From: Rhynchopus sp. YZ270_cl-10
Taxonomy: Eukaryota
DNA: 64,000 nt
NCBI GenBank assembly: GCA_964035575.1
Contig: OZ037836.1
Location: 1,364,001-1,428,000, forward strand
Reading direction: 5' to 3'
This document shows positions 2,908 through 56,832 of this stretch, piece after piece. The position numbers were made by a program, and so were the translations under genes. How positions within the stretch are numbered: position 1 is the stretch's first letter; each line of letters begins with the position of its first letter. The notes beneath the pieces are model-generated. The model saw only the letters and a list, made by a program, of their open reading frames with translations. It ran no database searches and was not told the DNA's origin.

Positions 2908-4155
2908 TCAGACACTTCGCTGGGAACGGTACTTCTTCGACACAGCATGTGTCGCAGTCGCGAAGGCCTCCTTGTGGGGAAGGCCAGACTTCATGGCAGC
3001 CGTGTACTCAGCGGGGAAGTGCTTCTTCGTGAAGAGCGCGTACTTGGTAGCAGGCTTCTTCAGGCTCTGGCGGATGTCGGTCCTCTTGGCCTTGTTCTTT
3101 GCTGCCTCAGCCTCGAGCACTCCACGCTGCTGGGCGGAGAGTGCTGCCCACTTCGTGTTCACATCCTTCAGGGTCAGCTTCGTTCCCTTCATCGTCTTCT
3201 GGAAGAACAGGGCGCGTGCGGTGACAGGTCCGCTCGATGCGATCTTGCCCTTCTTGGCCTTCTCCTCGTTGACACGATCCTTGAGGGCAGCCTTCTTGTC
3301 CTTGGCAGCCTGTCTCTTCTTCGCCAGACGAGCCTTGAGGGCAGCCTTCTTGGCCTTGACAGCCTGCTTTCTCTTCGCAACACGAGCCCTGAGAGCAGCC
3401 TTCTTTGCCTTCTGAACCTGCTTTGCCTCCTTAACACGAGCCTTCAGGGCAGCCTTCTGAACCTGCTTTGCCTCGTCAACACGAGCCTTCAGGGCAGCCT
3501 TCTCTGTTTTCTTGACCTGCTTTGCCTCGTCAACACGAGCCTTCTTTGCCTTTTTAGTCTGGACCTTCTTGAGGGCGGCTTTCATGGCCTTGTAAGCAGC
3601 CTTCTTGTCCTTCTTGACCTGTGCCTTCTTCGCAGCCTTCTTGGCAGCGCGAGCCTTCAGGGCAGCCTTCTTGGCCTTGACAGCCTGTGCCTTCTTCGCA
3701 GCCTTCTTGGCAGCGCGAGCGTTCAGGGCAGCCTTCTTGGCCTTGACAGCCTGTGCCTTCTTCGCAGCCTTCTTGGCAGCGCGAGCGTTCAGGGCAGCCT
3801 TAAGAGCAGCCTTCTTCACCTTGACAGCCTGTGCCTTCTTCGCAGCCTTCTTGTCAGCGCGAGCCTTCTTGGCAGCGCGAGCCTTCAGGGCAGCCTTAAG
3901 AGCAGCCTTCTTCACCTTGACAGCCTGTGCCTTCTTCGCAGCCTTCTTGTCAGCGCGAGCCTTCAGGGCAGCCTTAAGAGCAGCCTTCACCTTCTTGGCA
4001 GACACCTTCTTCGACGCAGACTTCTTCGCCACAGGCTTCTTTGCTGCCTTGGTCACCTTGCTGTGCATCTGCACGGCACCCACCTGCACAGCACCCACCT
4101 GCACAGCAGGGAGCACGAACTTCGCCTGGCGCACAATGGAACGAAGAGACATCAT
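2908..4155 (-). CDS. Lys/Ala-rich histone-H1-like, KAP-like mitochondrial DNA-binding protein with C-terminal HMG-box-like pair (415 aa)
   Basis: Arg-containing, acid-free N-terminus (MMSLRSIVRQAKFVLP) resembling a presequence; KKAALKARAAKK repeats; C-terminal GPVTARALFFQK...VNTKWAALSAQQR and KKPATKYALFTKKHF segments resemble the degenerate HMG boxes of kinetoplast-associated proteins. Confidence 0.75.
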   Translation of the reverse strand: MMSLRSIVRQAKFVLPAVQVGAVQVGAVQMHSKVTKAAKKPVAKKSASKKVSAKKVKAALKAALKARADKKAAKKAQAVKVKKAALKAALKARAAKKARADKKAAKKAQAVKVKKAALKAALNARAAKKAAKKAQAVKAKKAALNARAAKKAAKKAQAVKAKKAALKARAAKKAAKKAQVKKDKKAAYKAMKAALKKVQTKKAKKARVDEAKQVKKTEKAALKARVDEAKQVQKAALKARVKEAKQVQKAKKAALRARVAKRKQAVKAKKAALKARLAKKRQAAKDKKAALKDRVNEEKAKKGKIASSGPVTARALFFQKTMKGTKLTLKDVNTKWAALSAQQRGVLEAEAAKNKAKRTDIRQSLKKPATKYALFTKKHFPAEYTAAMKSGLPHKEAFATATHAVSKKYRSQRSV

Positions 4156-5914: not shown

Positions 5915-6061
5915 ATTACCGTTAAATTATATCCCCACAATTTAACGCAGTGAGTTGTGGGTCACGAGTGTACTAATCCCACGAGCGCAGCGAGTGGGAT
6001 TCGTGAACGAGTGACCCACAACTCACTAAGTTAAATTGCCGGGATATAATTTAACAATAAT
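5915..6061. repeat. ~147-bp imperfect palindrome
   Basis: Arms GTTAAATTATATCCC...AGTGAGTTGTGGGTCAC...AATCCCAC and their reverse complements around GAGCGCAGCGA. Confidence 0.85.
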
Positions 6062-8465: not shown

Positions 8466-9908
8466 AACAGAGTTTTATTTTTATATGACGATTCTCGTAT
8501 ATTCAAAAAAAAAATGTATGTTTGTGGCAAAGCTTGTATCCCGCTGTGTCATACCAGATGCGATGCATCACGGCGGAACTGGTCCGGCAGCTCATCCTCA
8601 CCCATGACACGTCCTCCCTCCACTATAAACGTCGACGTGGAACTGCTTTCCTGCATCTGTTGCTTCCATGTGTCCATCTTACACCACCCTCTTCACCCTC
8701 TTTTCTTCCTTTTCTGATTCTGAATCTGCTCCAAGCACCAACGGGAAACACGCCTTCGCAAAAAATGGTGTATCAATTCTCCCTCTCAGCAGAACACCGT
8801 CTATGAGAAAAGAAGCGTGACGGGAGGGGGTGAGAAAAGGCGGAGGTGGGGGACAGCCTTTTGTTGGAAACCGTCATCACACCTCTTCGTGCAAGCTACC
8901 AAGAAGACAGTGAAAGACCACGTGGTGTTAACGAGTTCAGTGATAATAAATTGCAGAAAAAGGGGGGGTTGGGACGGGAGGTACATTGTAATGAATAAGA
9001 CATGGGTTTTTGTGGGGATTCTTTTGCAGCACAGAGTAAAATAACACAATGTGTGGAACGTCTTGCTCAGCACAGCTCTCCTCTCGCACCAAGTAGTAGT
9101 CTGTGCCACGGTGAGCAAGACTGTGCCCCTCTTCTTCTCCGAACCAGAGGACGCAAGCAGACATACTGCCAGAGACCCTCCACCTCGGGGAGGTGCTGCC
9201 CTCCTGCAGTTCGCAGCAAAATACGAACATCTAGAACCGCAACTAAAATGCGTCGCATTCCTGAGTGGTGATAAACCCAAGGTCGTTAAGCTGCTGCAGT
9301 TCGAAAGGAACCACCCACCAACCTGCCTCACGTTGTTGAGTGCAGATAAATCGATGTTGGTTAAGCTCGTACAGCCGGTAAGAAAGTGGTTATCAATCTG
9401 CGTCACGTTGTTGAATGGTGATAAATCCAGGGTTGTTAAGCTGCTGCAGTTATGAAGGAACTCTGTGCCAACGTGCGTAACGTTGCTGAGTGGTGATAAA
9501 TCAACTGCAGTTAATCTCACGCATCCATAAAGAAAGCTGTTACCAACCTGCGTCACATTGCTGAGTGGCGACAAATCCAGGGTCGTTAAGCTGAAGCAGT
9601 TCTGAAGGAAGCACTCACTCACCTGCGTCACATTGCTCAGCCCAGAGAGATCAATACTTGTCAACGAGCGGCAGCAAGCCAGGAAGCTGTGACCAATGTG
9701 AGTCACAGTGGACACAGCACTGAGATCAAGTCTCGTCAACGAAGTGCGCGACAAGAAGTAATTCGGAATGACAGTCGCAACCTCCGCCTGCAGAAGCAAA
9801 CACGCCACCTCAGGATCCTCCACACTCTTCAACTTCTCGGCTGTGATGTCGGTCACACCCAACGCATGAAGCTCTGCAATGGCTTCGTACTTCTGCGTCT
9901 TCGTGAGG

Positions 9909-11560
9909 TAGGGGTCCGTTTTAGGTCTCTGGCAGGCCGGGCCTTCTTTCTGTGGCCTTCCCAACCAAAAGACCCCCAAAAAACACAGGTACCTGCTGCG
10001 TTTAATGGCACTTTACCCCAGTCCCTGGAACAGATCGGCAAGCCGACCAGCCCAGGTATGCATGCCAACACTACTGGGGGTGCACTGTTCGATAGCATAA
10101 AAGAAAAGTCAAAAAGTCAAAAAGACAAGAAGGTCAAACAAAATAGGTACTTCGAACAGGGCTGACAGGAGGGGATTCTCACCCGAGGTTCGGTGCCTGT
10201 CAGGCTGCGATTAGTGGTTCTGGGTGATTCCCTTCTTCCTAGCCACCGTTACCGCGTTGCCCGCACCGTAAGAGAGTGGGGACGGTTCACGACCGTTCGT
10301 ACGCGTCAGCAAAAGTAGGGGTCGGAGTCCAGGCCCGAACCGGAAACATTAACCTCCGTTTTTCGAAACATTAAAAAGTAAAAATGAAAAAGAAAAATCA
10401 ACAGCAAGAGCAGTGTTGCTGTAAAAGAAACAGCAGCACCGTCAGCTAACATGTCCACACAATATGGCAGACGGCCACACAAAATTCCCCTGATTTGTAC
10501 AGAGAAAGTTGTAACTTCTTCCTTACAAGTAAGGGAGTGCCGGCAGGGAAGGAGTTACAACAAACAGTGAACAAACTCAAGTACCAGCCTTTCCGCGTAG
10601 CACGGACCCTACATTTGGTAGTTGGTCTGCCCTACTGCCTCATCTGCACCGTAGCTGGACGCCACGGCGACAACTCCTTCATCTTCAACGTACCAAAGCA
10701 CGTGAAAATAGAACAAAAACAAACACATTGGAAAACAACAGAGCATGTACCTGCAGATCCACAGTTGTTTCACGTACAGTGCATACACCCTGAAAGCTTA
10801 ACCTCTTCCTTCTAGCACAGACGTTGGTCTGCCCTACTACTTCTTCTGCACCGTAGCTGAATGCCACGGCGACAACTTGTACCCACCTGCGAATGAATGT
10901 TCGCAGATCCCTTCTTCTACTAACGTATAAAAAACGTAAAAACAGACCAAAAACTACAACATGCCACACTGAATTAACGACAGAGCACGCACCTGCAGAT
11001 CCACAGATGTTTCACTACGGTGTACACAGCCTGAGGTTAAACACATAACACAAGAATTCTACTACGGCAAAAAGATGAAAACTGAACTGAACTGAACAAA
11101 ACTACAACACACCACACTGAATACACAAGAGCACGTACCTGCTGATCCACAGTTGTTTCACATACAGTGTACGCACCAACAAAGCAACACAACGTTCCCA
11201 TGCGGTCAAACGACAACACAGGAACAGCAACAATATTCCGTCACCAGTAGAGACACCGGCAACGCTTCCTTCTTGTACCTGGGATCCCCTCATCGGCATC
11301 AACACACTCCCAGTCACCGCACAGGTAACAGATCCTTGAAACCCCTCCGAAGGGGTTTGCGTAGCCTACATAAGCTGGTGATCTGCCCGAAATTGACTGT
11401 GATGTTGTATTAATAACCAGGGTTCCCACATCGGCTTGTTCCTCCTCCGGTCCCGAGCGAATCCATCATTGGAGAGGCGGCCGCCCACGCTGACTCAGTA
11501 CCATGCGAACACGGCGTCCAGGGGACCCACTTGGCGGTTGGTCAGACGTTAATTGCCCCC
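9909..11560 (-). mobile_element. 1652-bp non-coding retroposon-like insertion, family 1 copy 1
   Basis: Flanked by 18-bp TTCTGCGTCTTCGTGAGG (9891-9908, 11561-11578); no TIR or LTR, no long ORF; ~200-bp internal repeats. Confidence 0.85.
11488..11560 (-). ncRNA. Putative HDV-like self-cleaving ribozyme
   Basis: Same fold as 13544-13616, with one substitution (G36U) weakening P1. Confidence 0.55.
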
Positions 11561-11578
11561 TTCTGCGTCTTCGTGAGG

Positions 11579-13617
11579 TAGGGGTCCGTTTTAGGTCTCT
11601 GGCAGGCCGGGCCTTCTTTCTGTGACCTTCCCAACCAAAAGACCCCCAAAAAACACAGGTACCTGCTGCGTTTAATGGCACTTTACCCCAGTCCCTGGAA
11701 CAGATCGGCAAGCCGACCAGCCCAGGTATGCATGCCAACACTACTGGGGGTGCACTGTTCGATAGCATAAAAGAAAAGTCAAAAAGTCAAAAAGACAAGA
11801 AGGTCAAACAAAATAGGTACTTCGAACAGGGCTGACAGGAGGGGATTCTCACCCGAGGTTCGGTGCCTGTCAGGCTGCGATTAGTGGTTCTGGGTGATTC
11901 CCTTCTTCCTAGCCACCGTTACCGCGGTGCCCGCACCGTAAGAGAGTGGGGACGGTTCACGACCGTTCGTACGCGTCAGCAAAAGTAGGGGTCGGAGTCC
12001 AGGCCCGAACCGGAAACATTAACCTCCGTTTTTCGAAACATTAAAAAGTAAAAATGAAAAAGAAAAATCAACAGCAAGAGCAGTGTTGCTGTAAAAGAAA
12101 CAGCAGCACCGTCAGCTAACATGCCACACATTATGGCAGACGGCCACACAAAATTCCCCTGATTTGTACAGAGAAAGTTGTAACTTCTTCCTTACAAGTA
12201 AGGGAGTGCCGGCAGGGAAGGAGTTACAACAAACAGTGAACAAACTCAAGTACCAGCCTTTCCGCGTAGCACAGACCCTACATTTGGTAGTTGGTCTGCC
12301 CTACTGCCTCATCTGCACCGTAGCTGGACGCCACGACGACAACTCCTTCATCTATCAACGTACCAAAGCACGTGAAAATAGAACAAAAACAAACACATTG
12401 GAAAAACAACAGAGCATGTACCTGCAGATCCACAGTTGTTTCACGTACAGTGCATACACCCTGAAAGTTTAACCTCTTCCTTCTAGCACAGACGTTGGTC
12501 TGCCCTACTGCCTCTTCTGCACCGTAGCTGGACGCCACGACGACAACTCCTTCATCTTCAACGTACCAAAGCACGTGAAAATGGAACAAAAACAAACACA
12601 TTGGAAAACAACAGAGCATGTACCTGCAGAGTGCATACACCCTGAAAGTTTAACCTCTTCCTTCTAGCACAGACGTTGGTCTGCCCTACTGCCTCTTCTG
12701 CACCGTAGCTGAATGCCACGGCGACAACTCCTTCATCTATCAACGTACCAAAGCACGTGAAAATAGAACAAAAATAAACACATTGGAAAAACAGCAGAGC
12801 ATGTACCTGCAGATCCACAGTTGTTTCACGTACAGTGCATACACCCTGAAAGTTTAACCTCTTCCTTCTAGCACAGACGTTGGTCTGCCCTACTGCCTCT
12901 TCTGCACCGTAGCTGAATGCCACGGCGACAACTTGTACCCACCTGCGAATGAATGTTCGCAGATCCCTTCTTCTACTAACGTAAAAAAAAACGTAAAAAC
13001 AGACCAAAAACTACAACATGCCACACTGAATTAACGACAGAGCACGCACCTGCAGATCCACAGATGTTTCACTACGGTGTACACAGCCTGAGGTTAAACA
13101 CATAACACAAGAATTCTACTACGGCAAAAAGATGAAAACTGAACTGAACTGAACAAAACTACAACACACCACACTGAATACACAAGAGCACGTACCTGCT
13201 GATCCACAGTTGTTTCACATACAGTGTACGCACCAACAAAGCAACAAAACGTTCCCATGCGGTCAAACGACAACACAGGAACAGCAACAATATTCCGTCA
13301 CCAGTAGAGACACCGGCAACGCTTCCTTCTTGTACCTGGGATCCCCTCATCGGCATCAACACACTCCCAGTCACCGCACAGGTAACAGATCCTTGAAACC
13401 CCTCGAAGGGGTTTGCGTAGCCTACATAAGCTGGTGATCTGCCCGAAATTGACTGTGATGTTGTGTTAATAACCAGGGTTCCCACATCGGCTTGTTCCTC
13501 CTCCGGTCCCGAGCGAATCCATCATTGGAGAGGCGGCCGCCCACGCTGACTCAGTACCATGCGAACACGGCGTCCAGGGGCCCCACTTGGCGGTTGGTCA
13601 GACGTTAATTGCCCCCA
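11579..13617 (-). mobile_element. ~2039-bp non-coding retroposon-like insertion, family 1 copy 2
   Basis: Near-identical to 9909-11560 but with about two extra internal repeat units. Third TSD copy at 13618-13635. One extra base (13617) at the 5' junction. Confidence 0.85.
13544..13616 (-). ncRNA. Putative HDV-like self-cleaving ribozyme
   Basis: Hand fold: P1 GGGGGC/GCCCCU (G1-U wobble); P2 CUGA/UCAG; P3 CCA/UGG with L3 ACCGCCAAG; P1.1 CC/GG; P4 GCCGUG-UUCG-CAUGGU; J4/2 ACUGAG with the candidate catalytic C. Confidence 0.7.
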
Positions 13618-14918
13618 TTCTGCGTCTTCGTGAGGATGATTGTGTCACCAGCACTCAGCTGCGTCATGTCCGCTCCTTCTCCCATCGCTTCGCCTCCGAA
13701 ACTCATGCAAAAGCCGTCTTCAGGCAACCCCATTGCAGTCGCCACCTTCCGCCGCAAGCCCTCCACTGTGTCATCTTCACCCACCTCGACCGCATGCTTC
13801 ACTCCGTTCAACCCCTTGATGGTCAAATCCATATTTGATCTTTGGTTCGATGTTTTCCCTTGTTGTTGTACTGAGGTGATGTTGATGTGGAGAAAGTGTG
13901 GAAAAGAAACAACACAGCACCTCTGCTCTCTATTTGTAACATGGAAGTGTGCGTAAACCCCCAGGGTGAACACAGTCAGATTGCTTCTGTATGTTTTCCT
14001 GCAGTGCCCCACCCCCGGAAAATCGGGTTCAATAGGTGATTAGGACAATGCGAACTGGCGGCAGTGTGGGGTATTTACCAGGCACATAATAACACTTCAC
14101 CCGACCAAAGAGAAGGCGAAGGAACATTCTTTTGGAAAAATAATAGGGGACTGGGGGGAAGCAGAACACTTTTGAAAGATGAACCTGAGCCTCTCGTACT
14201 CAGTCACCTTTAGTCACAACCTTGAAGTCCAAAACAAAATAGGGGAGTCCTGAGGTAAAGGGGGAAAGACGTTTTGAATCATCGACAAAAAAATAAAGAA
14301 AGAAAAGCCCGCGTGCACGGCCCTCCCCCTTCCGCCCTTCAACAAGGTTAGATTCGTTGCCTTCGTTTCAAATAAGAACAGTTTGTCAGGTGAGCCTAAG
14401 CCTCTCGTGCTTAGTCACCTTGAGCACAAACGTTGTCGTATGAAAACAAAGTGTGCACGGACAAGACAAGAAAGGCACCAGTGGGAGGGCAGGGGGGCAT
14501 GAGCTATAGCTACTTGAATGTCGACAACAATTGCCACCTCCCCAAAAAAGGGGTTAGATTTGGGTAAAGAAAGAGCAGTTGAAACTAAAACACAGCTCGG
14601 TCGTGCTCAAGCAAAGGGTGGGTGTGAGTGGTCCGTACCGTAAAAGAACGGAGGCGGTTCACAACCACTCGGAAAAAGGCTAGATTTGTCTCAAAGAAAG
14701 GTTTACAAGATGAACCTGAGCTACGGACTTAGGCATCCATGAAGGTGCGAACCCTGATTGCCTAACACAGGCAGACAGCGCTGAAGAGACATCAGCGACA
14801 TGCAACTCACGAGAGAGAAGACAACAATAACTTTGCACTAGGTAGATAGTGTAAAGTGGTTCTACGTTTTCCTCACTTTTCCAACTTGATAGGTTCGTCT
14901 AGCCGGATAGTTTGTTGT

Positions 14919-15504: not shown

Positions 15505-18500
15505 TTACTCACCTTTGCCAAAGTAGGTAACGTTGATCACATATACAACACACACCACAGCGACAAGGCAACGAAACAACACTTCTGCCTTGCCGTGCGT
15601 TGATTGGGTGACATGATGCGCGCACCTTGCCACACACAGGATGGGGTTGTTCGAGAGTGCCGGCCCTGCATAACGCACCGCACCCAGATCTGCGCAGATG
15701 GCAGTGAACACCATGAAGAAGCTGTCCCTCAACTCCGGCACCGCCATCTGCAGGTACATCCCGTTGTGTGCCACACATCGCCGCATGAAGGCTGCGTTCG
15801 CGCAAAGTGCGGAGGGCACCCCCTTCAACAGCCCCTTATGCAAGACAACAGCTTCGTACACGAAATCTGCGTCATGTTGCCACCACTTCCCGACGTGCTG
15901 CAAATTCCCCGCACAACGCATCCCAAGCAACGCAATCTCTCTCTCCGCACGCAATGGGAGCGACGCATACTCAAAGTTCTTCGGGTTCGCTGTCACCGCA
16001 CACCGCACCACGTCTCCGTCGTTGCAGAGGTCCCTTCCCAGGCGCGACAGAATCAGACCCTCAACACTGCACATCGCAAGCACCCGCAGCACCACAGAAC
16101 GATCCTTCCACAGCGCCGCCCCGATGTGTTCCGCATCACACCCTGCGTGCTCCAGGCAGGACAACACAAACTGTTTGTTCTGCCTCAGCTTTTCGCCAGC
16201 AAAGGCAAACGCCCTTGGATCATCCGCAACCGCAGCTAGAACAAGGTGTGCATCCCCCCTCAGCTTTGCGTGCGCCTTCTGCAACGCGAAGTGCCCACCA
16301 TAGACGTGCAGGAGCTTTCGCAACACAGCTCGGTTCTTCCAGAGGTTGGCCTCCATGCGGAAACAGTCTTTTGGAACTGTTGTCATGACGGCTTCAACAA
16401 AGTCTTTCTTTGACAGCAACGATGGGTCCACATGAGCCATGGCCTCGGGGGATATGCCCACCATCTTCAGTGCGAAGGCAGACTCCTGCTTCAGCGCCCT
16501 GCTGGCAAATGCGAAGTTTGCACCGTTTGCTGTGCACGCTGCTGTGACGACGTCAGTATTGCGCCGAAGACGACGCGAAGCGTACTGCAAATTCGCCTTC
16601 GCACTCTTCTCTGTAAACGCAGCGGCAACGATGCTCCGATCATCTGCCAAGGTGGGGGTCACAAACTGCAGGGCATCCGCATTGTTCTTCAACGCTGCCA
16701 GCACCACAGCACGGTTGCCTCTCACCGCGACTCCACCATGCGCCAGAGAGAGCCCACACAGCCCCACAACCTCAAGCATCACATCCACAGACCCCAACAC
16801 CCGACTCCCAGCGTGCTGCAGAACCGACATATCCTTGTTCACAGCCGCCAACACAACCTCGCGGTCGTTCTGTACAACGCCACCAGCGTGCTGCAACCAC
16901 GTGGCCTCCTTGGCAACAGCTTCGAGCATGAACACTCTGTTGTTACGAAGGGATGTGACAGATGGAAATGCCTTCGTCAATGTATGTCTTAATGCGGTCG
17001 TCGCAACTTCTAGATCTGCCTTCAGGGCGTCCGAGGCATGGTCAAAGGTGCTAGGGTGGATTTCAATCGCAGAAAGAACCAAACCTCTGTCAGATCTGGC
17101 ACGAAGCCCTGCATGCGGGAGGGCCGCATGGTTCTGCGTTACCGCAGCCTTCACAACCTCAATGTCGTCTTGGAGCGCCAGACTCACGTTGCGGAGCGCA
17201 TGGCCGTTCTTTGTAACCGCCTTGAGCGCGCATGCTCTGTCCGCTCGTACAGTCTCTCCTGCATACGCAAAACACGACGCATCCGTCTTCAGTGCGCACA
17301 ATGCAATGTCGACGTCATCCTGCAACGCCTCTGAAGCAAACTGCAGAGCCTTCCCCTTCGACTTCACTGCAGCACGCACCACGTCAATATCGTTCCGGAG
17401 ATCGCTGTGTGCATACACCAAGGCAGCTCCACTGCTTGCAACCGCCTCGAGAACAAGGCTCTTCTCCTGACGCAGGCCTGGTGATGCGAACTTCAGCATC
17501 ATCCCGTCATCCTGCACGCAGCGGAGCACCACTTCACGGTCGTCGCGCATTTCATGTGAAAGCTCCTGAAGGAGCGCCCCCTTCCAGGTTCCCTTTGGCT
17601 GTGCGAGGAGGAATGAGCGGTTGTGCAAAATGTCCTTTCCGATGTGCGTGAATCCGTTCTTGCCTGCAGCACGGACGACCTTGGCAGCGATGGTGGGGTT
17701 GTTCTGGAGCCGTGTGCTCGCGTAGGTGATGGCGATGTAGTTGCTCTGCACTGCCGCCAACACAACCTCGTAACAGTCCTGCAACCCACTGTCCGCGTAC
17801 TGCAGGTTCTTCCCATCCAACTTCACAGCCTTCAGCACAATGTCCTCATCCCCCTTCACCGAGGCCGGCGCTGCCTCCAAATTCCCCATTCCTTTTTCGA
17901 GTGCGAGACGATACACCTCTGGGTCCCCTTGCAGCTGTTTTGAGACGTGCACGAGAGCACCACCATGCCTCAATGCCTCGAGGACAAATGGTTTCGATGC
18001 ACGAAGCGCGGAACCACAGTGTTCAAAATTCACGCCATGCCGTTTTATGGCGGCAGCACAGACGTCTTTGTCCTTCCTGAGCGAGGCGGCGACGTGTTCA
18101 AAGCTGTAGTAGGAGTTTGCAACGACTGCGAGCACAAAGGCTTTGTCCCCCCTGAGGCGTGGGGAGACGTGCTTCATCATGACACCATGGCGGCATACTG
18201 CTCTGTACGCAAGGTCGTAGTCGTCGCGTATGGCACTGCTGCAGTATTCCAAAGCAGACGCCTGCGACGATAAGGCTGCACGCGCCACGTCCCAGTCCCC
18301 CTGCAGCGTCGTGTCCACGTAGCGCATGTTGTCCCCCGAAAACGTCACAACCTTCATCACCAAATCCTTGTTCCGTCTCAGCTCTGCAGACGCATACCCC
18401 AAGGTGTACCACCCCTTCGACAGCGCAGCGAGCACCACCTCAGGGTCGTTTTTGAAGCGCTGGTCAACGTGGTCGAGGGCAACCGTGTGGCGGCGGACAG

Positions 18501-19278
18501 CTTCAAGCACGAAGGTGCGGTCTGACCTCAGCGCGTCCGACCCGTACTGCAGATGCGACCCATAGCCCTTTACCGCCTCGAGAACGACTTCGCGGTCGTC
18601 ACGCAGGGCAGGCGAGGCATGGCGCAGGGCCTCCCCGTGTTTCCGGACTGCAGCGAGGACGATGCTGCGGGTGTCGCGCAGTGCTGCGGAAGCGTGCTCC
18701 AGCATGCGTCCGTTGTGATCAACGCAACGCAGCACAGCGCACGCATCGTTCCGCAACACCCCTGCGTTGCCAAACGACAGCGCATTCCCCTGGCTCGCAT
18801 CGACCATCACCTCCGCAAAGTCTCTGTTCCGCCATGCCTCAGGGCTTGCAGCACTCCCCGCGCTTGTGTCCGCCTCCACCGCAGCCCGCATCACAGCTGA
18901 GTCAGTCTGCATCGCAAGCGGCAACTCAGCGTACCGCCTCCACCCAGACGCAACCAACGACAGCGCGCATTCTCTGTTGTGCTGCAGAGCCTCCGGCAGA
19001 GTGCCGTACGCCGCCCCGTCACGCACCTTCTGCACAAAAACCTTTGCAGTTGGGTGAAGCGAGATCATCGACCCGCACACAATCGCGTCAGAGCTCCCCA
19101 ACGGCGCCTCGCTGTCGAAGTCCATCAAGGGTGCCCCATCCAGCTCAAAGTCGACGTGAGCAGGGAGGTACCCGAAGGCAGCAGCTGCACGTGTGCAGAA
19201 GGATTCCACGGTGTCGTACTCATCTATCTCGAGCACCTCTTCGTCGTTGCTGAGGGAGTCGCGGATGAAGACCTCCAT
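15505..19278 (-). CDS. Ubiquitin-like N-terminus + long DUF4116-type repeat array, hydrophobic C-terminal helix (~1257 aa)
   Basis: Likely start MEVFIRDSLSNDEEVLEIDEYDTVESF (Ubl-like); dozens of ~25-aa LRDDREVVLEAVKGYGSHLQYGSDA-type repeats; C-terminal VLFRCLVAVVCVVYVINVTYF. Confidence 0.85.
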   Translation of the reverse strand: MEVFIRDSLSNDEEVLEIDEYDTVESFCTRAAAAFGYLPAHVDFELDGAPLMDFDSEAPLGSSDAIVCGSMISLHPTAKVFVQKVRDGAAYGTLPEALQHNRECALSLVASGWRRYAELPLAMQTDSAVMRAAVEADTSAGSAASPEAWRNRDFAEVMVDASQGNALSFGNAGVLRNDACAVLRCVDHNGRMLEHASAALRDTRSIVLAAVRKHGEALRHASPALRDDREVVLEAVKGYGSHLQYGSDALRSDRTFVLEAVRRHTVALDHVDQRFKNDPEVVLAALSKGWYTLGYASAELRRNKDLVMKVVTFSGDNMRYVDTTLQGDWDVARAALSSQASALEYCSSAIRDDYDLAYRAVCRHGVMMKHVSPRLRGDKAFVLAVVANSYYSFEHVAASLRKDKDVCAAAIKRHGVNFEHCGSALRASKPFVLEALRHGGALVHVSKQLQGDPEVYRLALEKGMGNLEAAPASVKGDEDIVLKAVKLDGKNLQYADSGLQDCYEVVLAAVQSNYIAITYASTRLQNNPTIAAKVVRAAGKNGFTHIGKDILHNRSFLLAQPKGTWKGALLQELSHEMRDDREVVLRCVQDDGMMLKFASPGLRQEKSLVLEAVASSGAALVYAHSDLRNDIDVVRAAVKSKGKALQFASEALQDDVDIALCALKTDASCFAYAGETVRADRACALKAVTKNGHALRNVSLALQDDIEVVKAAVTQNHAALPHAGLRARSDRGLVLSAIEIHPSTFDHASDALKADLEVATTALRHTLTKAFPSVTSLRNNRVFMLEAVAKEATWLQHAGGVVQNDREVVLAAVNKDMSVLQHAGSRVLGSVDVMLEVVGLCGLSLAHGGVAVRGNRAVVLAALKNNADALQFVTPTLADDRSIVAAAFTEKSAKANLQYASRRLRRNTDVVTAACTANGANFAFASRALKQESAFALKMVGISPEAMAHVDPSLLSKKDFVEAVMTTVPKDCFRMEANLWKNRAVLRKLLHVYGGHFALQKAHAKLRGDAHLVLAAVADDPRAFAFAGEKLRQNKQFVLSCLEHAGCDAEHIGAALWKDRSVVLRVLAMCSVEGLILSRLGRDLCNDGDVVRCAVTANPKNFEYASLPLRAEREIALLGMRCAGNLQHVGKWWQHDADFVYEAVVLHKGLLKGVPSALCANAAFMRRCVAHNGMYLQMAVPELRDSFFMVFTAICADLGAVRYAGPALSNNPILCVARCAHHVTQSTHGKAEVLFRCLVAVVCVVYVINVTYFGKGE

Positions 19279-20455
19279 CGTGAAGAGGGTGAGGGTGGGG
19301 TAGGGAGAAGGAGAAGGGTGGTGGTGGAGAGAGGTTCTGTGTTGCCGTGTGGTCAGGTCGTGTTCAAACGTAAAGTAACAAAAATTGTGCATTTGTGTGC
19401 GCTGTCTCGTGCAGGCCAAAAACAGCTCATGACCAAGCATGCTGGAAGGAAGTGAGCCATGGTTGTGACTTGCCCACAACTGCTGGCACTGACAGCGACC
19501 ACACAGTGCTGCCACAACACTGTACTAGCTCCCATGAGAGACACTGCGCTGTCTCCACCCACCCCACGCAAGGAAGAACGCCAAAGGTGCTCTCGTGCTG
19601 CAACCACAGACAAGCTGAGGTGCCAGACAAATGCACGAAAGCACCCCACCGCCAGACACAGCTTCCCCTCCCATCATCACCACAAACGATCGAGGGAAGC
19701 GCCACACCCAAACCCCCCCACACTCACAACACTGCGCACCATCCGTACAACACCTGAGACAGGCCAAACAGCGTAGGGCTTACTGTGGCTTTGCCAGGAA
19801 CTTTCGTTTGAGCAAAATATAGAAGTAAAACTTAAGGAACTGGACGATAAATACCAACGAAAGTTCCATTTTATTTCAACATTTTTCAGAAATGTAGCGT
19901 ACCGTGGCTTCGCCATGAACCTTTGGGTGCCATGACCCCGCTCATCTCCCGTATGTTTCAGTTCTTTCGAAATTGCACAGCGATCTGCGTACTCCCTGGC
20001 GTGGCGCACGTTTTTCACTCTGGGTAGGTGGGAAAAGGGTCCAACACATCGGAGACAAAAACAGATTTCTGTATTGGGGTGGTGCGGGGGTTGGTCTTGT
20101 TCACTAACAGTCGGGAAGAACGGTAAAAAAAAAAGTGATGTGCAACATCGAGCAGTGGGAAACATCCACCGGACGTAAAAATATCTTTCAAAAAAAAAAA
20201 GAGCGAACTGAGGAAACAGTAAAATGTAACACAGCAACTGCAGCGGAGTTCACAGTAATCTCGTGAACTCAAGATGGCTGATGGCACTGCAGGGTTGCAT
20301 GCATCCAGTTCTTCCAGGCAGCCACAGGACTGGAAGATAGATGCAACTAAAATAGTAATATAAAAACGTACTTTCTTTCAAGGAGAAACCGAAGAAATGT
20401 AGGGTGAAGACGAAAAGTAAAAATTGAATGAAACAGGCGAGACTGTCAAAACACA

Positions 20456-21652
20456 TCAAGTTTGATCTCCCAAGGCCTCAACTGCAGTCCTCATGACTTG
20501 CACGGCCGCATCAAGAGTGACAAGCTCTTCCTTATCGTTCGGGGCTTGTTCTTCTTGTTCCTCATCATCAGCGTCGGGTTCTTCGACTGCCGGAAATCCG
20601 TGTCTCAGCTTGCATTCAACAGCATATCTGCGTTCGATATCCTGATTCAGTGACAGCAGTGCGAGACGACCATGGCACTCAAGGGAGAGGGCACCTCTGT
20701 TAGCGGATAGCGCACTCTGAAAGGTAGGCGTGTCTCCGTCGTCATTGTGCGTGTCTCCGTCACTTCTGGCTTTCCTCGGGGATTCGTCTCTGCTTCGTTT
20801 CGGACGTGCTTCAACCACAAGCTTACTCAGCTCGCCGTTCCTCACTTCGTTGGACACAACACTGCTGCAGCCGGAAAGGTAAATGCTCGTCAACGAAGTG
20901 CAGTTCGCAGCAAAGTTCGTAGTATTATTCCAAGTCAAACCAATCGACGTCACGTTCCTGAGTGGTGACAAATCCAGGGTGGTTAAGCTGCTGCAGTTCT
21001 GAAGGAACCGCGCACCAACCTGTGTCACGTTGCTGAGTGAAGTTAAATCGACGTTGGTTAAGCTCGCGCAGCCGTAAAGAAAGCTGTCACCCACCTGCCT
21101 CACATTGCTGAAGGGTGATAAATCCAGGGTCGTTAACCTCTTGCAGTTCCAAAGGAAGTCCTCACCAACCCGCGTCACATTGCTCAACCCAGAGAGGTCG
21201 ACACTTGTCAACGAGTCGCAGCCTTCCAGGAACCTGACTCCAATGTGAGTCACAATGGACTCAGCACTGAGATCAAGTCTCGTCAACGAAGTGCGTGCCA
21301 AGAAGTAATTCGGAATGACCGTCGCAACCTCCGCCTGCAGAAGCAAACACGCCACCTCAGGGTCCTCCACACTCTTCAACTTCTTGGCTGTGATGTCGGT
21401 CACACCCAACGCATGAAGCTCTGCAATGGCTTCTTGCTTCTTCGTCTTCGTGAGGATGATTGTGTCACCAGCACTCAACTGCGTCATGTCCGCTCCTTCT
21501 CCCATCGCTTCGTCTCCGAAACTCATGCAAAAGCTGTCTTCAGGCAACCCCATTGCAGACGCCACCTTCCGCCGCAAGTCCTCCACTGTGTCATCCTCAC
21601 CCACCTCGACTGTGTGCTGATTCGTGTCGAAACCCTTGATGTTCACGTCCAT
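20456..21652 (-). CDS. Ubl-LRR paralogue B (398 aa, 5 LRRs, frameshifted and extended C-terminus)
   Basis: MDVNIKGFDTNQHTVEVGEDDTVEDLRRKVA Ubl fold; SLTxLDLSxLSNVTQVGxxFLxxC repeats (BspA/LRR_5-like). Confidence 0.85.
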   Translation of the reverse strand: MDVNIKGFDTNQHTVEVGEDDTVEDLRRKVASAMGLPEDSFCMSFGDEAMGEGADMTQLSAGDTIILTKTKKQEAIAELHALGVTDITAKKLKSVEDPEVACLLLQAEVATVIPNYFLARTSLTRLDLSAESIVTHIGVRFLEGCDSLTSVDLSGLSNVTRVGEDFLWNCKRLTTLDLSPFSNVRQVGDSFLYGCASLTNVDLTSLSNVTQVGARFLQNCSSLTTLDLSPLRNVTSIGLTWNNTTNFAANCTSLTSIYLSGCSSVVSNEVRNGELSKLVVEARPKRSRDESPRKARSDGDTHNDDGDTPTFQSALSANRGALSLECHGRLALLSLNQDIERRYAVECKLRHGFPAVEEPDADDEEQEEQAPNDKEELVTLDAAVQVMRTAVEALGDQT

Positions 21653-23498: not shown

Positions 23499-26400
23499 CA
23501 GAGCCCGCGGACCTCCCCCGAAAATTAATTATGCACCCCCTTCCAACCCCCGTCCCGCCCAAAAAACACAAAAAAAAAAACAAAAAAAAACCTCTCCCGA
23601 GCTTTCCCCGAGGACAAGCCAGAAATACGAAAGGGAGGCTTTTTCTCCTGCTGAAAGTGAAAAAATGACGGGGGGAGGGGGGTCATATGTTCTTTGATGA
23701 TTTTACATTCGGTATACGGGGGGGGTGGTGGTGGGGTTGGGGTTGGGGTAAAAAACTTAGAAAGGCGGATACACTGACGTGACAACATGGTCAGGGATAC
23801 GCAGTGCGCGATTAATTTGGCACCCTGACGCATTCGTGTAAGCGGTATAAAATCGCTTCACTGCTCGCAGACACTGGTTGTGGGACAGACGTTTATCGAA
23901 TCTCTTGACCTCCTTCCCAGGCGCAGAAAACACTCTGCCCTTCCCACGGGCATGCAGAGCAATACGCATGTTCCCGTTCAGGTTGTCGGATGAAAGCAAT
24001 TTCCGCTGATTAGTTTTTATTTGATTCATAGCTGATATGACTCTCTCACATTCAGCGTTGCTCACGGGGAAAACAAGAAAAATTTCAATAATTTCTCTCA
24101 AATGAGGGAAGAGTTTTTTTTTTTTCATTATTTTATAAATGTCAGGCACTGTCGTGTCAGACAAAGTAGAAAACGTGTCTTTGTAAACAATGAACTCCGC
24201 CTTGATACGGGCGAGATCGAAGTCGTAACCTCCATGTGTGCCTGACACCTTTCGGTCCTCAGTGCAGGGGTCGGAGGAGGTGCCACTGTAAAAAAAATCT
24301 GTCACGCCGCTAGTGTACCACGACAACAGGTCGTCTAGCTCTTTTGCCCCAAAAAGTAGTAATTGTGATGTGTCCCTGGGGAAATGTCTAGGGGAAAAAA
24401 TTTTAAATTTAGACAAAAAGGGCACATCACAAATCACGCCCTCAGTCTCTTCAATGAGGCGGGTGAGGTAGGGGGAGGCGACGATTTCGTGGAATGGGTT
24501 AAATTCCAGGTCTTCGTCCAATGCCTCCGCATTTACGTCGGCCAGCACCTCTGGCCACGTGGGGTACACCTGTCCTGATATCGCAGGATTATCACGCAGT
24601 TCGCGGATAGTGTGCAGGTACTGGTCGAACACGTCGACCAGATCAAACACGCTCAGGCTGCGGTCCTGTGGAATGAAATAAAATAAACGATAAAGGGAAT
24701 TGATTTGGGCCATACCTGGAGTGTTGAGACCAACGAGCTGTTGGCATCCTCGACATCTGCAAGCAGATGCACGCTCTTTACCATGGCGGGTTCCATGAGC
24801 TTCGCTGACAGATCAGCGGTCTTTGCTCTAAGGAACCGCACCAGAGGGCGGTACACTGCCGTGATGTTATCCAAACATCTGGCATTCTGGATCCACCGAA
24901 TCTCATGGGGTTCCAGTACCTTGCGTGGCTTGTCGATTCCAACTCCTTTCTGGAACTTCATCCAGTCCGTCACACGAACGCTGCTGGCGTTGAACCAGGA
25001 GTACAGCTTCGACTCCATGGCGATCGCCGCATCCAGGCACGGCACGGCCTTCGTCGCCCCCTTTGGCTTCAGCACAAACTGGTGGCACGTACACCAGAAG
25101 TACTTCGCGTGCAGGTTCATTCTCACGCGTAGCCTCTTCTGCAGCCCCCTCTTTTTCCCAGACATCGACGCTGTCCCATCCAATCCGATAGCAATCATCC
25201 TTTTCGGATTTAAACCAAGGTCGCGTACCGCCCCCAAGAGTACCCTCTCATACTCCTCTGATGTGCCGTTGTTCATGGGGAGCAAGGACAGGAAGCACTC
25301 GCGAACCTCCCCCTCCTCTACGTCGATGTAGCGAACACAAAGAGCACACTCTGCACACTGGGCGATGTCCTTGCTCTCATCGCACATCAAAGACCACCAG
25401 GGAGACTGCTGGATGCACAGTAGCAAGTCCTCCGTCGTAACCATCGACACTGACTCCAGTAATTGGCGAGACTCTGCCGTGCCGAGGTAAGTCGGCGGCT
25501 CAGCTAAATGCCGCTGCAAACTGGCGCACCCCTGCTCCTCAGCCACGTAGATCACGTGCTCTTGCAACTCCTCAATGGCGTGCATACGTCGAGCGTTGTA
25601 GTGCACACACTTGATCAGGCTAATGAGCCCTTCCAGGTTCTTCTCCTTCGTGTTTTCACTCGCCATGTCAAGCTGTGCAGCGATGGAGGAGGTGGGCGCG
25701 GCGGGCTTCTTACTGTTAACCAGGAACTTCGCATGCTCACGTTCAGCAGTAACATGATACTCCGCCTTATGATGCGATTTTATTGCATCAAGTGCAGTGT
25801 TCCAGTTGTTCAGTGGTCTTTTGGAAGTGAACGCGTGCTGAACATTTGTAGGCATCGTTCCCTTCTTCTCCTTCACGAAGAACCACTCGCAGTGCTTGCA
25901 CGTCATCCCAAGTTCGTCCTTGCAGAGCCACTTGAACTGGCTCTCCCACGATTCCTGGTACGTCCGTACTTTTCGCTTCTTCGCTGCACGATTGGAGCTT
26001 GACACATCAGACGCAAGACGAGTACGATCACCTGAACCTGTCGCAGAAGCCGCATCTGGGACGTCGGTCGTAGCATCAACATCTATCTGCATGGCGGTAG
26101 CAACAGGCGCAGTCTCCTCTGTAGTAGCAGCAGGCGCAGTCTCCTCTGTAGTAGCAACAGGCGCAGTCTCCTCTGTAATAGCAACAGGCGCAGTCTCCGT
26201 AGATGTGACGGCAACGGAAGGGGGCTGCAACACAAAGTCGCTCACGGAGGCTTTAACACCTGTAGCTGGCACTTCATCTTCATCTTCGTCATCGTCATCG
26301 CCATCGCCACCGACCTGCATTGCCACGCTGGCGTCAAGTTGTGACATGGCTTCTGTCGCTGATGCAGCCTTCATCTGATCGGCCTTCCTCTTCGCCTGCT

Positions 26401-26812
26401 GCAACATGGCCGGCAGTGACCCCTTCTCCCTCTTTCCCAGCCTTGCCAAAGCTTGCATCCGCTTTGTCGGCCGGCCGGACATTATTATTCTTATTCTTTT
26501 TTGATTTTTCTGTTAAGTATTGTACATGGGAAAGGGATGTCGATGTACAGGCGATTGTCGAAACTACAAAAAACCCCTGCGGGGCTGAGGCTCCCAAACC
26601 CTTTTTCCTTTTTTTTTTTGTATCGACAATCACCTACTGAGGCAGGAAAAATAAAATTTCCCCCTCCCAAACCCCCCTCCCCCCAAAAAAAACACCCAAA
26701 AAAAAAACCCAAAACCCCCGTCCCTGGACGGGGGTCGGGACGGGGGTCGGTTTTTGGAAAATAATTGACCCCCGTCCGGGACGGGGTGAACGGGGGTGTT
26801 CCGCGGACTCTG
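23499..26812 (-). mobile_element. Full-length hAT DNA transposon (3314 bp)
   Basis: 8-bp TSD CCTCCACC (23491-23498, 26813-26820); TIR CAGAGCCCGCGGACCTCCCCCG / CAGAGTCCGCGGAACACCCCCG (19/22). The empty site GAGACCCTCCACCTCGGGG is present in paralogous flanks at ~9172, ~29788 and ~37339. Confidence 0.95.
23757..26482 (-). CDS. hAT transposase (ZNF862/DUF4371-like), 2 exons 26482-24716 and 24665-23757, ~891 aa
   Basis: WESQFKWL...CKHC...H zinc finger, SLMCDES, GLDGT, CTCH, EIRW, and PVSNAECERVISAMNQIKT dimerisation motif. A 50-nt GTATGG...CACAG phase-0 intron joins STLQ|DRSLS in frame. Confidence 0.9.
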
Positions 26813-31817: not shown

Positions 31818-32897
31818 TCAATCAAACCAAAGAACACAACCACTGCTTGCAGCAGGCCTCCTTGACCTGGCACCGGGTTGCATCAATAGGTACTTCTTCG
31901 ACACAGCATGTGTCGCAGTCGCGAAGGCCTCCTTGCGGGGAAGGCCGGACTTCATGGCAGCCGTGAACTCAGCGGGGAAGTGCGTCTTCACGAAGAGCGC
32001 GTATTTGGTAGCAGGCTTCTTCAGGCTCTGGCGAATGTCGGTCCTCTTGGCCTTGTTCTTTGCTGCCTCAGCCTCGAGCACTCCACGCTGCTGGGCGGAG
32101 AGTGCTGCCCACTTCGTGTTCACATCCTTCAGGGTCAGCTTCGTTCCCTTCATCGTCTTCTGGATGAACAGGGTGCGTGCGGTGATAGGTCCGCTCGATG
32201 CGATCTTGGCCTTCTTGGCCTTCTCCTCGTTGACACGATCCTTGAGGGCAGCCTTCTTGTCCTTGGCAGCCTGTCTCTTCTTCGCCAGACGAGCCTTGAG
32301 GGCAGCCTTCTTGGCCTTGACAGCCTGCTTTCTCTTCGTAACACGAGCCCTGAGAGCAGCCTTCTTTGCCTTCTGAACCTGCTTTGCCTCGTCAACACGA
32401 GCCTTCAGGGCAGCCTTCTCTGTTTTCTTGACCTGCTTTGCCTCGTCAACACGAGCCTTCTTTGCCTTTTTAGTCTGGACCTTCTTGAGGGCGGCTTTCA
32501 TGACCTTGTAAGCAGCCTTCTTGTCCTTCTTGACCTGTGCCTTCTTCGCAGCACGAGCCTTCAGTGCAGCCTTCTTGGCCTTGACAGCCTGTGCCTTCTT
32601 CGTAGCCTTCTTGGCAGCGCGAGCCTTCAGGGCAGCCTTAAGAGCAGCCTTCCTCACCTTGACAGCCTGTGCCTTCTTCGCAGCCTTCTTGGCAGCGCGA
32701 GCCTTCAGGGCAGCCTTAAGAGCAGCCTTCACCTTCTTGGCAGACACCTTCTTCGACGCAGACTTCTTCGCCACAGGCTTCTTTGCTGCCTTGGTCACCT
32801 TGCTGTGCATCTGCACCGCACCCACCTGCACAGCACCCACCTGCACAGCAGGGAGCACGAACTTCGCCTGGCGCACAATGGAACGAAGAGACATCAT
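31818..32897 (-). CDS. Second KAP-like gene copy (359 aa), fewer Lys/Ala repeats, altered C-terminus
   Basis: Near-identical to 2908-4155. A 22-bp deletion (CGTCAGACACTTCGCTGGGAAC) removes the stop codon and gives a new tail YLLMQPGARSRR... Confidence 0.7.
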   Translation of the reverse strand: MMSLRSIVRQAKFVLPAVQVGAVQVGAVQMHSKVTKAAKKPVAKKSASKKVSAKKVKAALKAALKARAAKKAAKKAQAVKVRKAALKAALKARAAKKATKKAQAVKAKKAALKARAAKKAQVKKDKKAAYKVMKAALKKVQTKKAKKARVDEAKQVKKTEKAALKARVDEAKQVQKAKKAALRARVTKRKQAVKAKKAALKARLAKKRQAAKDKKAALKDRVNEEKAKKAKIASSGPITARTLFIQKTMKGTKLTLKDVNTKWAALSAQQRGVLEAEAAKNKAKRTDIRQSLKKPATKYALFVKTHFPAEFTAAMKSGLPRKEAFATATHAVSKKYLLMQPGARSRRPAASSGCVLWFD

Positions 32898-49200: not shown

Positions 49201-49920
49201 AACAGCGCGTTTGGATCGAAAGCGTTGCTTTTCAGAGAAACAGCGCGTTTGGATCGAAAGCGTTGCTTTTCAGAGAAACAGCGCGTTTGGATCGAAAGCG
49301 TCGCTTTTCAGAGAAACAGCGCGTTTGGATGGAACGCGTCGCTTTTCAGAGAAAGAGCGCGTTTGGATCGAAAGCGTCGCTTTTCAGAGAAACGGCGAGT
49401 TTGGATGGAAAGCGTCGCTTTTTAGAGAAACACCGCGTTTGGATCGAAAGCGTCGCTTTTTAGAGAAACAGCGCGTTTGGATCGAGAGCGTCGCTTTTCA
49501 GAGAAACAGCGCGTTTGGATCGAAAGCGTCGCTTTTCAGAGAAACGGCGCGTTTGGATGTAAAGCGTCGCTTTTTAGAGAAACACGCGTTTGGATCGAAA
49601 GCGTCGCTTTTTAGAGAAACAGCGCGTTTGGATCGAGAGCGTCGCTTTTCAGAGAAACAGCGCGTTTGGATCGAAAGCGTCGCTTTTTAGAGAAACACCG
49701 CGTTTGGATCGAAAGCGTCGCTTTTCAGAGAAACAGCGCGTTTGGATCGAAAGCGTCGCTTTTTAGAGAAACACCGCGTTTGGATCGAAAGCGTCGCTTT
49801 TCAGAGAAACAGCGCGTTTGGATCGAAAGCGTTGCTTTTCAGAGAAACGGCGCGTTTGGATCGAAAGCGTCGCTTTTCAGAGAAACAGGGCGTTTGGATC
49901 GAGAGCGTCGCTTTTCAGAG
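40205..49920 (+). repeat. 38-bp tandem satellite, ~255 copies
   Basis: Consensus TTTTCAGAGAAACAGCGCGTTTGGATCGAAAGCGTCGC; degenerate at both edges; one interruption at ~42245-42320. Confidence 0.98.
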
Positions 49921-56564: not shown

Positions 56565-56832
56565 CATTTATTTGTGCGATGCATCTGAGGAAAAAAAAGT
56601 GTTCTCCCAGATGTGTTCTCCCTCCCCCCGCTATGAGAGCTCTTATCGCGGATGCTAGTAAATAGGGGAAATGTACACCACCGCCCCACTTCATAACAAC
56701 CCATTCGAACACCCCACCCCAGGGTCCCACCATAAAAACCCACCTTGCATCACTGCCCCTTCCTCCACTCGTTTCGATGCAAAGTCAAATTTTTCCACGA
56801 TTCTGTATTTCCCCCCCCCCCCCCCCCCCATA

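What the first reader, a model, noticed from the sequence alone, without database searches (positions are those of the whole stretch)
9891..13635. Same 18-bp site occupied twice in tandem (TSD-element-TSD-element-TSD)
Seen: the 18-mer occurs three times around two head-to-tail copies. The copies differ by SNPs, by ~386 bp of internal repeats, and by one extra 5'-junction base in copy 2. Paralogues carry TTCTTCGTCTTCGTGAGG (one difference) and are empty. Inference: either sequential site-preferring insertion, as in R2/CRE-type elements with untemplated 5' addition typical of TPRT, or unequal exchange between TSDs.
Basis: partly seen in the sequence, partly recalled or inferred. Interest (0 to 1): 0.7.

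Follow-up and report, generated by a model that had tools for sequence, protein, structure and literature searches.

The report
Retroelement targeting one protein-coding gene family
Two copies of a non-coding mobile element sit head to tail at one exact spot in a ubiquitin-like/leucine-rich-repeat gene, and the same element ends sit at that same spot in at least ten other, separately related copies of the gene family, so it is likely a copy-and-paste RNA element, with a predicted self-cutting RNA at its front end, that homes in on a protein-coding gene family.

Summary
Confirmed and larger than reported. The 18-mer flanks and separates two non-coding copies (1652 and 2038 nt) that split a ubiquitin-like + LRR gene; five paralogues in the window are empty. 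The tandem junction is in a read-derived contig. Genome-wide, the element's 5' end follows the same codon in 11 paralogues that do not form one clade (AU p 3e-32; each is nearest to an empty gene). Read contigs show only gene-family flanks at the listed ends. Two other element types share the 3' terminus and site, one as a 57-nt copy with the 18-bp duplication. Each copy starts with an HDV-like ribozyme fold (untested, atypical loop). Best reading: a target-specific, non-autonomous non-LTR retroelement inserted twice by TPRT, like R2/R1 hybrid SIDEs in R1 tandem arrays. The autonomous partner was not found. Trypanosome RHS and TcTREZO/MASP are precedents for protein-gene targets. New variant of a known kind.

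The parts
13605..13832 (-). 5' half of the host gene: ubiquitin-like domain, read into the element to a stop (75 aa)
   Evidence: Pfam ubiquitin E 7e-8; predicted protein P0137
13618..13635 (-). 18-bp target duplication, upstream copy
   Evidence: exact match
13617..13617 (-). one extra base between the duplication and the first G of copy 2; likely untemplated
   Evidence: alignment; a different +1 base is implied in paralogue P0162; not seen in listed read contigs
11579..13616 (-). element copy 2, 2038 nt, no long ORF, four internal repeat units; close to the family majority
   Evidence: alleles versus read contigs
13545..13616 (-). predicted HDV-like ribozyme at the exact 5' end of copy 2 (P1 6 bp with first G-U, P2, P3, P1.1, P4, J4/2 with candidate catalytic C)
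   Evidence: descriptor scan; P1 and P4 appear in the minimum-energy fold; no Rfam match
12290..13242 (-). internal imperfect repeat region of copy 2
11561..11578 (-). 18-bp target duplication between the copies
   Evidence: exact match; junction contig 11539-11589 in run X1, no differences
9909..11560 (-). element copy 1, 1652 nt, two internal repeat units; carries alleles rare in the family, one breaking a P1 pair
11489..11560 (-). predicted HDV-like ribozyme of copy 1, with a P1 mismatch at 11525
10621..11185 (-). internal imperfect repeat region of copy 1
9891..9908 (-). 18-bp target duplication, downstream copy
   Evidence: exact match; left junction also in contigs of runs X6 and X9
8801..9908 (-). 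3' half of the host gene: LRR_5 repeats; the family's C-terminal cap is missing (about 180 bp lost near 9203)
   Evidence: Pfam LRR_5 E 4e-22; alignment break against the 37-kb paralogue; translation
21438..21455 (-). empty target site in a paralogue (also 27403, 28826, 31090, 37937)

Best explanation
This is a non-coding element that sits at one fixed position in many members of a ubiquitin-like/LRR gene family, and it is likely a non-autonomous non-LTR retroelement that an as yet unseen partner enzyme inserted twice, one copy after the other, by target-primed reverse transcription. Shown: fixed site, 18-bp duplication, many unrelated carrier paralogues, variable 5' junction, fixed 3' register. 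Inferred steps: (1) the element is co-transcribed with the host gene and cut free at its first G by the predicted HDV-like ribozyme; (2) a partner reverse transcriptase/endonuclease recognises its 3' end, whose last ~17 nt are shared by two other element types at this site; (3) it nicks the target at the start of the 18-mer and the other strand 18 bp on, which duplicates the 18-mer and sometimes adds one base at the 5' junction; (4) the upstream duplicate keeps the upstream context, is cut again, and receives a second copy, so copy 2 is likely the younger one. The partner is most likely a CRE/SLACS-like restriction-endonuclease element (about 55%), otherwise an APE-type one (R1-, Tx1- or ingi-like).
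For: Site: 10 of 29 short ubiquitin-like proteins end in the element's 5' peptide right after the target codons, plus one cluster member; they lie on at least four contigs, are 57-96% identical in the ubiquitin-like part (median 76%), each is closer to an empty paralogue than to another carrier, and one clade is rejected (11 against 28 rows, 68 columns, p-AU 3e-32). 3' side: 3 further proteins begin with this element's 3' peptide and 6 with two related 3' peptides, all in the same register; P0124 holds 20 foreign residues between two LTKTK, i.e. a 57-nt insert plus the 18-bp duplication, the form of a 5'-truncated copy. Reads: in run X1 the high-depth 5'-end contig runs unbranched into the first 4 bases of the 18-mer and stops where the paralogues differ; all 5 loose-end rows at the duplication edges read as gene-family flanks, with three different upstream variants. 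Junctions: 9 without and 2 with one extra base, the two extras different. Independent sources: at 11409 and 11190 both copies' alleles are common in runs X2 and X5, and copy 2's allele at 9955 recurs in P0122. Ribozyme: the only hits of a strict descriptor on both strands of the window are the two 5' ends; 0 of 3000 shuffled heads, 0 of 100 shuffled elements. Precedent: R2/R1 hybrid SIDEs have a 5' HDV-like ribozyme and sit in tandem arrays separated by the 14-bp duplication (PMC3414825, passages).
Against: No autonomous partner, reverse transcriptase or endonuclease was found; the genome is not held. No poly(A) tail, which CRE and ingi elements generally have (PMC12278014, passages). The ribozyme descriptor was tuned on the candidate after a looser one missed it, Rfam has no match, folding z-scores are positive, the L3 loop is 9 nt and begins with A where the family has U (recalled numbering; L3 G-U pair in PMC3774820 section 12), and there is no covariation evidence. 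The protein searches could only find insertions in this gene family. On the downstream side the four type-A carriers are not rejected as one clade (p-AU 0.31). The X1 junction contig has only 22 and 11 element bases beside the 18-mer, below the tool's 31-base rule for bridging, X1 may be the source sample, and 17 of 34 laid records were not shown. No contig listed an inserted base at the 5' junction.
Confidence: 0.76

Rival explanations
1. The family is target-specific, but this tandem arose by recombination: unequal exchange or conversion between two carrier paralogues or chromatids, paired through the 18-mer.
For: Would also join two copies of different lineage around one 18-mer. Array changes by recombination are documented for MoTeR arrays (PMC7367193, passages). 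The gene family is large (423 hits).
Against: Needs pairing on 18 bp while 1.6 kb of in-register homology is on offer. All three 18-mers carry the same allele at the position where the family is split about evenly. The 5' junctions of the two copies differ by one base, which a sister exchange would not give.
Confidence: 0.11
2. The element has only a loose target preference, like ingi/RIME or L1Tc/NARTc, inserts widely, and this site is just its best hot spot, as in RHS genes.
For: RHS genes carry one or more retroelements at one site (PMC7563717, passages). Carriers tolerate changes inside the 18-mer (K, Q or M codon). The protein searches are blind to other sites.
Against: In X1 the 5'-end contig at depth 2744 does not branch before the fifth base of the 18-mer, and no listed loose end at the duplication edges is foreign. 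No other copy in the 64-kb window.
Confidence: 0.07
3. One old insertion was spread with the gene by duplication and conversion; no repeated targeting.
For: Low-depth runs X6 and X9 assemble the element with a flank like the window's; type-A downstream halves are not rejected as a clade.
Against: Carrier ubiquitin-like halves differ by up to 43% of residues and reject one clade while the two element copies differ at 13 positions; three element types and a truncated copy share the site.
Confidence: 0.03
4. The tandem is an assembly artefact that joins two alleles or two paralogous insertions.
For: Run X6 shows the 5' end joined straight to the gene flank and no cover past the middle duplication; no listed piece spans a whole copy.
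Against: Run X1 holds the tandem junction with no difference at depth 181, against 97 for a low-copy contig; X6 is low in depth and its contigs may merge many loci.
Confidence: 0.03

Closest known systems
R2/R1 hybrid SIDEs and R1 tandem arrays of Drosophila (PMC3414825, passages)
   Same: Non-coding, 5' HDV-like ribozyme, fixed site, fixed duplication, copies in tandem separated by the duplication, release from a host co-transcript.
   Different: Their target is 28S rDNA with a 14-bp duplication; here a protein-coding family with 18 bp. Their partners are known; here none is found. No sequence likeness was tested.
RIME/ingi in the RHS hot spot of Trypanosoma (PMC7563717, passages; the 2002 primary paper was not held)
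   Same: A single site in the 5' coding part of a large gene family holds one or more retroelements and makes pseudogenes.
   Different: ingi/RIME carry the Pr77 head and a poly(A) tail and show only relative site preference (PMC12278014, PMC5814959, passages); here no poly(A), an 18-bp duplication, and listed ends only at this site.
TcTREZO of Trypanosoma cruzi (PMC5814959 and PMC3155523, passages; primary paper not held)
   Same: About 1.6 kb, site-specific, tandem, mostly in a protein-coding family (MASP pseudogenes).
   Different: Described as a mosaic of other genomic sequences; a ribozyme or duplication length was not given in the passages seen. Other target.
MoTeR2 of Magnaporthe (PMC7367193, passages)
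   Same: About 1.7 kb non-coding partner of a CRE/SLACS-related element, sharing only its ends, in head-to-tail arrays separated by target sequence.
   Different: Target is the telomere repeat, with variable spacer length; here a unique 18-bp coding stretch.
CRE clade: SLACS, CZAR, CRE1/2 (PMC12278014, passages)
   Same: Strict site, target duplication, internal repeat regions. SLACS-like reverse transcriptases are much expanded in Diplonema papillatum (745 members of one orthogroup, supplement of PMC10161547).
   Different: CRE elements target spliced-leader genes, encode RT and RLE and generally end in poly(A); none of these holds here.

Membership tests
Non-autonomous non-LTR retroelement (SINE/SIDE-like) | Target-site duplication flanking each copy | tested here: met
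   18 bp, three copies; same length implied in P0124
Non-autonomous non-LTR retroelement (SINE/SIDE-like) | No coding capacity, no long terminal or inverted repeats | tested here: met
   longest ATG ORF 65 aa in copy 1, 113 aa in copy 2; no terminal repeat in self-comparison
Non-autonomous non-LTR retroelement (SINE/SIDE-like) | Fixed 3' junction, variable 5' junction, 5'-truncated copies | tested here: met
   read from predicted proteins, not DNA: fixed 3' register in 10 proteins, 9 plain and 2 +1 5' junctions, one 57-nt copy of a related type
Non-autonomous non-LTR retroelement (SINE/SIDE-like) | 3' end shared with an autonomous element | not testable with these tools
   no genome held; three element types share the terminal peptide-level motif, which only hints at a common partner
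SIDE (R2-type short internally deleted element) | Ends derived from R2 or R1 and insertion in 28S rDNA | tested here: not met
   target is a ubiquitin-like/LRR gene; works like a SIDE, not a member
HDV-like ribozyme | Nested double pseudoknot P1, P1.1, P2, P3, P4 starting at a G, with catalytic C in J4/2 | tested here: met
   all helices can form in copy 2; one P1 mismatch in copy 1; descriptor tuned after seeing the candidate
HDV-like ribozyme | Conserved L3 loop with a U-G reverse wobble | tested here: not met
   L3 is 9 nt and starts with A; a U-to-A change in the catalytic region occurs in hybrid SIDEs, one of which cleaves (PMC3414825, passage; the position is in a figure I could not see)
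HDV-like ribozyme | Covariation and self-cleavage | not testable with these tools
   only two near-identical DNA copies held; no Rfam match
CRE clade (SLACS/CZAR/CRE) | Insertion in spliced-leader genes | tested here: not met
   target is coding sequence
CRE clade (SLACS/CZAR/CRE) | RT and restriction-like endonuclease of the CRE clade in the partner | not testable with these tools
   partner not found
ingi clade (RIME, NARTc, SIDER) | Poly(A) tail | tested here: not met
   3' end abuts the duplication with no A run
ingi clade (RIME, NARTc, SIDER) | Pr77 head | tested here: inconclusive
   no Rfam family matched; no direct alignment to Pr77 was made
Spliceosomal intron | GT-AG (or GC-AG) ends that restore the frame | tested here: not met
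   none of 19 possible registers gives such ends

The most novel reading that the evidence does not exclude
An undescribed lineage of strictly target-specific non-LTR retrotransposons has moved from RNA-gene or telomere targets to one codon boundary in the linker of a several-hundred-member ubiquitin-like/LRR protein family, feeds at least three non-autonomous parasites there, and leaves 1-2-codon in-frame scars or escape variants in the intact genes: an element-versus-gene-family arms race at a single protein-coding site, run by an endonuclease of new specificity.
Probability: 0.4. Interest if true: 0.78.

Novelty: new variant of a known kind. Interest (0 to 1): 0.6.

Why it matters
Listed targets of sequence-specific non-LTR elements are rRNA, spliced-leader, tRNA and snRNA genes, transposons, microsatellites and telomeres (PMC4640811, passages); protein-coding families are known as targets mainly from trypanosomes (RHS, MASP). 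A second, base-precise case with a fixed 18-bp duplication points to a reverse transcriptase/endonuclease with a new target, which is easy to hunt in the assembly and relevant to work on site-specific gene insertion. It also gives a natural record of target tolerance: dozens of occupied and empty paralogues with small differences at the site. For the host, roughly a tenth of a large gene family may be knocked out at one position.

Tried and rejected
Whole genome: none held. Exact scans of metagenome contigs for the 3' and 5' ends: 0 and 0. Viral contigs for the host gene: none confirmed. Rfam on the window and on the locus at E up to 10: no match. First, loose ribozyme descriptor: 39 start positions at other places, missed the candidate, discarded as unspecific. 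3'-terminal hairpin: forms, but z only -1.1 and -1.7, not used as evidence. Intron reading rejected. DNA-transposon reading rejected: no terminal inverted repeat beyond a G run, 18-bp duplication. Idea that the site is a recombination hot spot that shuffles ubiquitin-like and LRR halves: linkage across the site (0.053) is no lower than within the downstream part (0.044), so unsupported. Seven foreign peptide tails at the 5' junction did not map to this element. Protein atlas gave only 'eukaryote' for one gene and a weak HMG-box lead for another, so the host group is not established; euglenozoan is my inference from one-strand, intron-poor gene clusters. No RNA holder listed. Run X8 covers only 35 bases of the junction stretch. 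Earlier findings of the scan: none returned. Literature searches listed no element targeting ubiquitin-like/LRR genes; subscription journals and Repbase are outside that library, and the primary RHS and TcTREZO papers were not held.
Full report
Observation. The 18-mer lies at 9891, 11561 and 13618, and five one-difference copies lie in uninterrupted paralogues; shuffles give none. Between the three lie copy 1 (1652 nt) and copy 2 (2038 nt plus one extra base at 13617). They differ by 13 substitutions, a 386-nt block of internal repeats, four 1-nt indels and that extra base. Neither has an ATG ORF over 113 aa. The interrupted gene runs on the minus strand: a ubiquitin-like domain before the site, LRR_5 repeats after it. 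Its paralogues in the window are 84-96% identical around the site. The host copy has also lost its C-terminal cap, so it is probably a pseudogene. The window is eukaryotic; euglenozoan is my inference, not a tool result.

Anatomy. Read in the gene's direction, each copy begins with five G. The first 72 nt can form all helices of an HDV-like ribozyme, with the first G at the exact boundary set independently by the duplication. A strict descriptor hits only these two 5' ends on both strands of the window, and 0 of 3000 shuffled heads and 0 of 100 shuffled elements. Limits: I tuned the descriptor after a looser one missed the candidate; Rfam finds nothing; nested-fold z-scores are +1.7 and +1.1; L3 is 9 nt and starts with A. 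R2 work shows that the L3 G-U pair and an intact P1 matter for cleavage (PMC3774820, sections 12 and 15 read), while hybrid SIDEs carry a U-to-A change in the catalytic region and one of them cleaves (PMC3414825, passages). Copy 1 has a P1 mismatch at 11525; all depth shown at that place in runs X2, X5 and X6 has the pairing allele of copy 2. The 3' end has no poly(A).

Is the tandem real? Eleven of 24 listed runs hold part of the stretch, from seven studies. In X1 a 51-nt contig covers 11539-11589 with no difference at depth 181, against 96.6 for a 485-nt low-copy contig. It has 22 and 11 element bases beside the 18-mer, short of the tool's 31-base bridging rule, and X1 may be the source sample; it still shows junction words in reads. 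In X5 the junction is not among the 8 records shown of 13; 17 of 34 records in that call were hidden. In low-depth X6 the 5' end joins the gene flank directly, and X6 and X9 hold the left junction.

Is the site a target? In X1 the 5'-end contig (depth 2744.5) runs unbranched through the first four bases of the 18-mer and stops where the paralogues differ. In X5 the 3'-end contigs extend 3, 7 and 13 bases into the 18-mer at depths 4406, 1400 (one difference) and 1796. All five loose-end rows at the duplication edges read as gene-family sequence, with three upstream variants; the other three rows are diverged element ends, two of them beside a target-like stretch by my reading. Depth ratios suggest about 28-37 copies, a rough figure: the tool warns that depth is no copy number, and it rests on one reference contig per run.

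Genome-wide view through proteins. A paralogue finds 423 relatives, the 120 listed all unnamed and apparently from the window's own assembly. Because the element's ends are in frame with the gene halves, junctions can be read as peptides. Of 29 short ubiquitin-like proteins, 8 end in the plain 5' peptide of this element and 2 in the +1 form (the window's and P0162, with different extra bases); one more plain one came from cluster members. These 11 lie on at least four contigs and share 57-96% identity (median 76%) in the ubiquitin-like part. Each is closer to an empty paralogue than to another carrier. On a tree of 39 rows (11 carriers, their nearest empties and 8 random ones, out of 133 empties; 17 other rows left out; 68 columns) one clade is rejected at p-AU 3e-32. 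Choosing nearest empties inflates the change count, and conversion among paralogues may distort the tree. On the 3' side, 10 of 69 hits carry element-like peptides in one register: 3 of this type, 2 and 4 of two types sharing only the last few residues, and P0124 with 20 foreign residues between two LTKTK, i.e. 57 nt plus the 18-bp duplication. On downstream sequence, one clade is rejected for the third type (p 0.004) and for all carriers (p 0.0009) but not for the four of this type (p 0.31). These searches cannot see insertions outside the family.

Two insertions or one duplicated? Alleles that separate the copies segregate among other copies: at 11409 copy 2's allele has 71% and 68% of summed depth in X2 and X5, at 11190 47% and 63%; copy 2's allele at 9955 recurs in P0122. 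Copy 1 holds alleles absent from the depth shown in those runs (11525, 11347, 10604), so it is the more diverged. With the different 5' junctions, this fits two source templates, copy 2 later and upstream, where the target context is kept (inferred from TPRT geometry). Recombination between two carriers could give the same picture and is not excluded.

Mechanism and comparison. Most likely: co-transcription, ribozyme release, recognition of the 3' end by a partner RT-endonuclease, staggered nicks 18 bp apart, repeat attack on the regenerated site. It works like the R2/R1 hybrid SIDEs, which sit in R1 arrays separated by the 14-bp duplication; Utopia also inserts in tandem in U2 genes (PMC4640811, passages). 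So tandem occupation as such is known. Protein-gene targets are known from RHS and TcTREZO/MASP; MoTeR2 is a similar-sized non-coding partner of a CRE-related element. It fails membership of SIDE, CRE and ingi groups on target or tail. The Diplonema genome paper (passages and a search of 7 supplement files) reports many SLACS-like RTs and leaves element identification for later. The searches named under Tried and rejected listed no element with this target.

Loose thread. Among 127 intact family proteins, 18 have small insertions at the target codons against 8 insertion rows at all other places in about 140 columns; deletions cluster elsewhere, 17 at one inherited spot. Fifteen of 86 parsed linkers are 1-2 codons longer, in 13 forms. 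Scars of aborted insertion, escape variants, slippage on the local repeat or mere linker tolerance could each explain it; protein data cannot tell.

Verdict. Real, not an artefact; a target-specific non-autonomous retroelement family with a new, protein-coding target; partner unknown. New variant of a known kind, interest 0.6.

Noticed in passing
proteins P0149, P0150, P0151, P0163, P0164, P0166, P0172: Seven more family genes leave the family sequence right at the end of the target codons into peptides that do not match this element; likely 5' ends or truncated copies of other elements at the same site, possibly the autonomous one.
   Followed up: partly
target codons in intact paralogues: In-frame 1-2-codon insertions are concentrated at the target site, in many forms.
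   Followed up: partly
runs X1 and X5, 485-nt contig joining at window 11591: A diverged 3' end of the element beside a target-like stretch, seen in two studies.
   Followed up: no
window 11986-11994 (copy 2) and the matching place in copy 1: An internal look-alike of the last 9 nt of the element, about 400 nt before the 3' end.
   Followed up: no
window 56832-58021: A 1.19-kb self-complementary block at 95.9% identity; smaller palindromic blocks at 40-178, 2165-2356, 5915-6061 and 62382-63017 look MITE-like.
   Followed up: no
window 23757-26512, minus strand: hAT-like transposase in two ORFs; the second has the hAT dimerisation domain.
   Followed up: no
window 40208-49921: 38-bp satellite, about 250 copies in two arrays.
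   Followed up: no
window 15505-19524, minus strand: Long protein with 16 DUF4116 repeats.
   Followed up: no
window 2908-4155 and 31818-32897, minus strand: Two lysine/alanine-rich genes, 88% alike, with a weak HMG-box lead at the C-terminus; resemble mitochondrial DNA-packing proteins of euglenozoans (recalled).
   Followed up: partly
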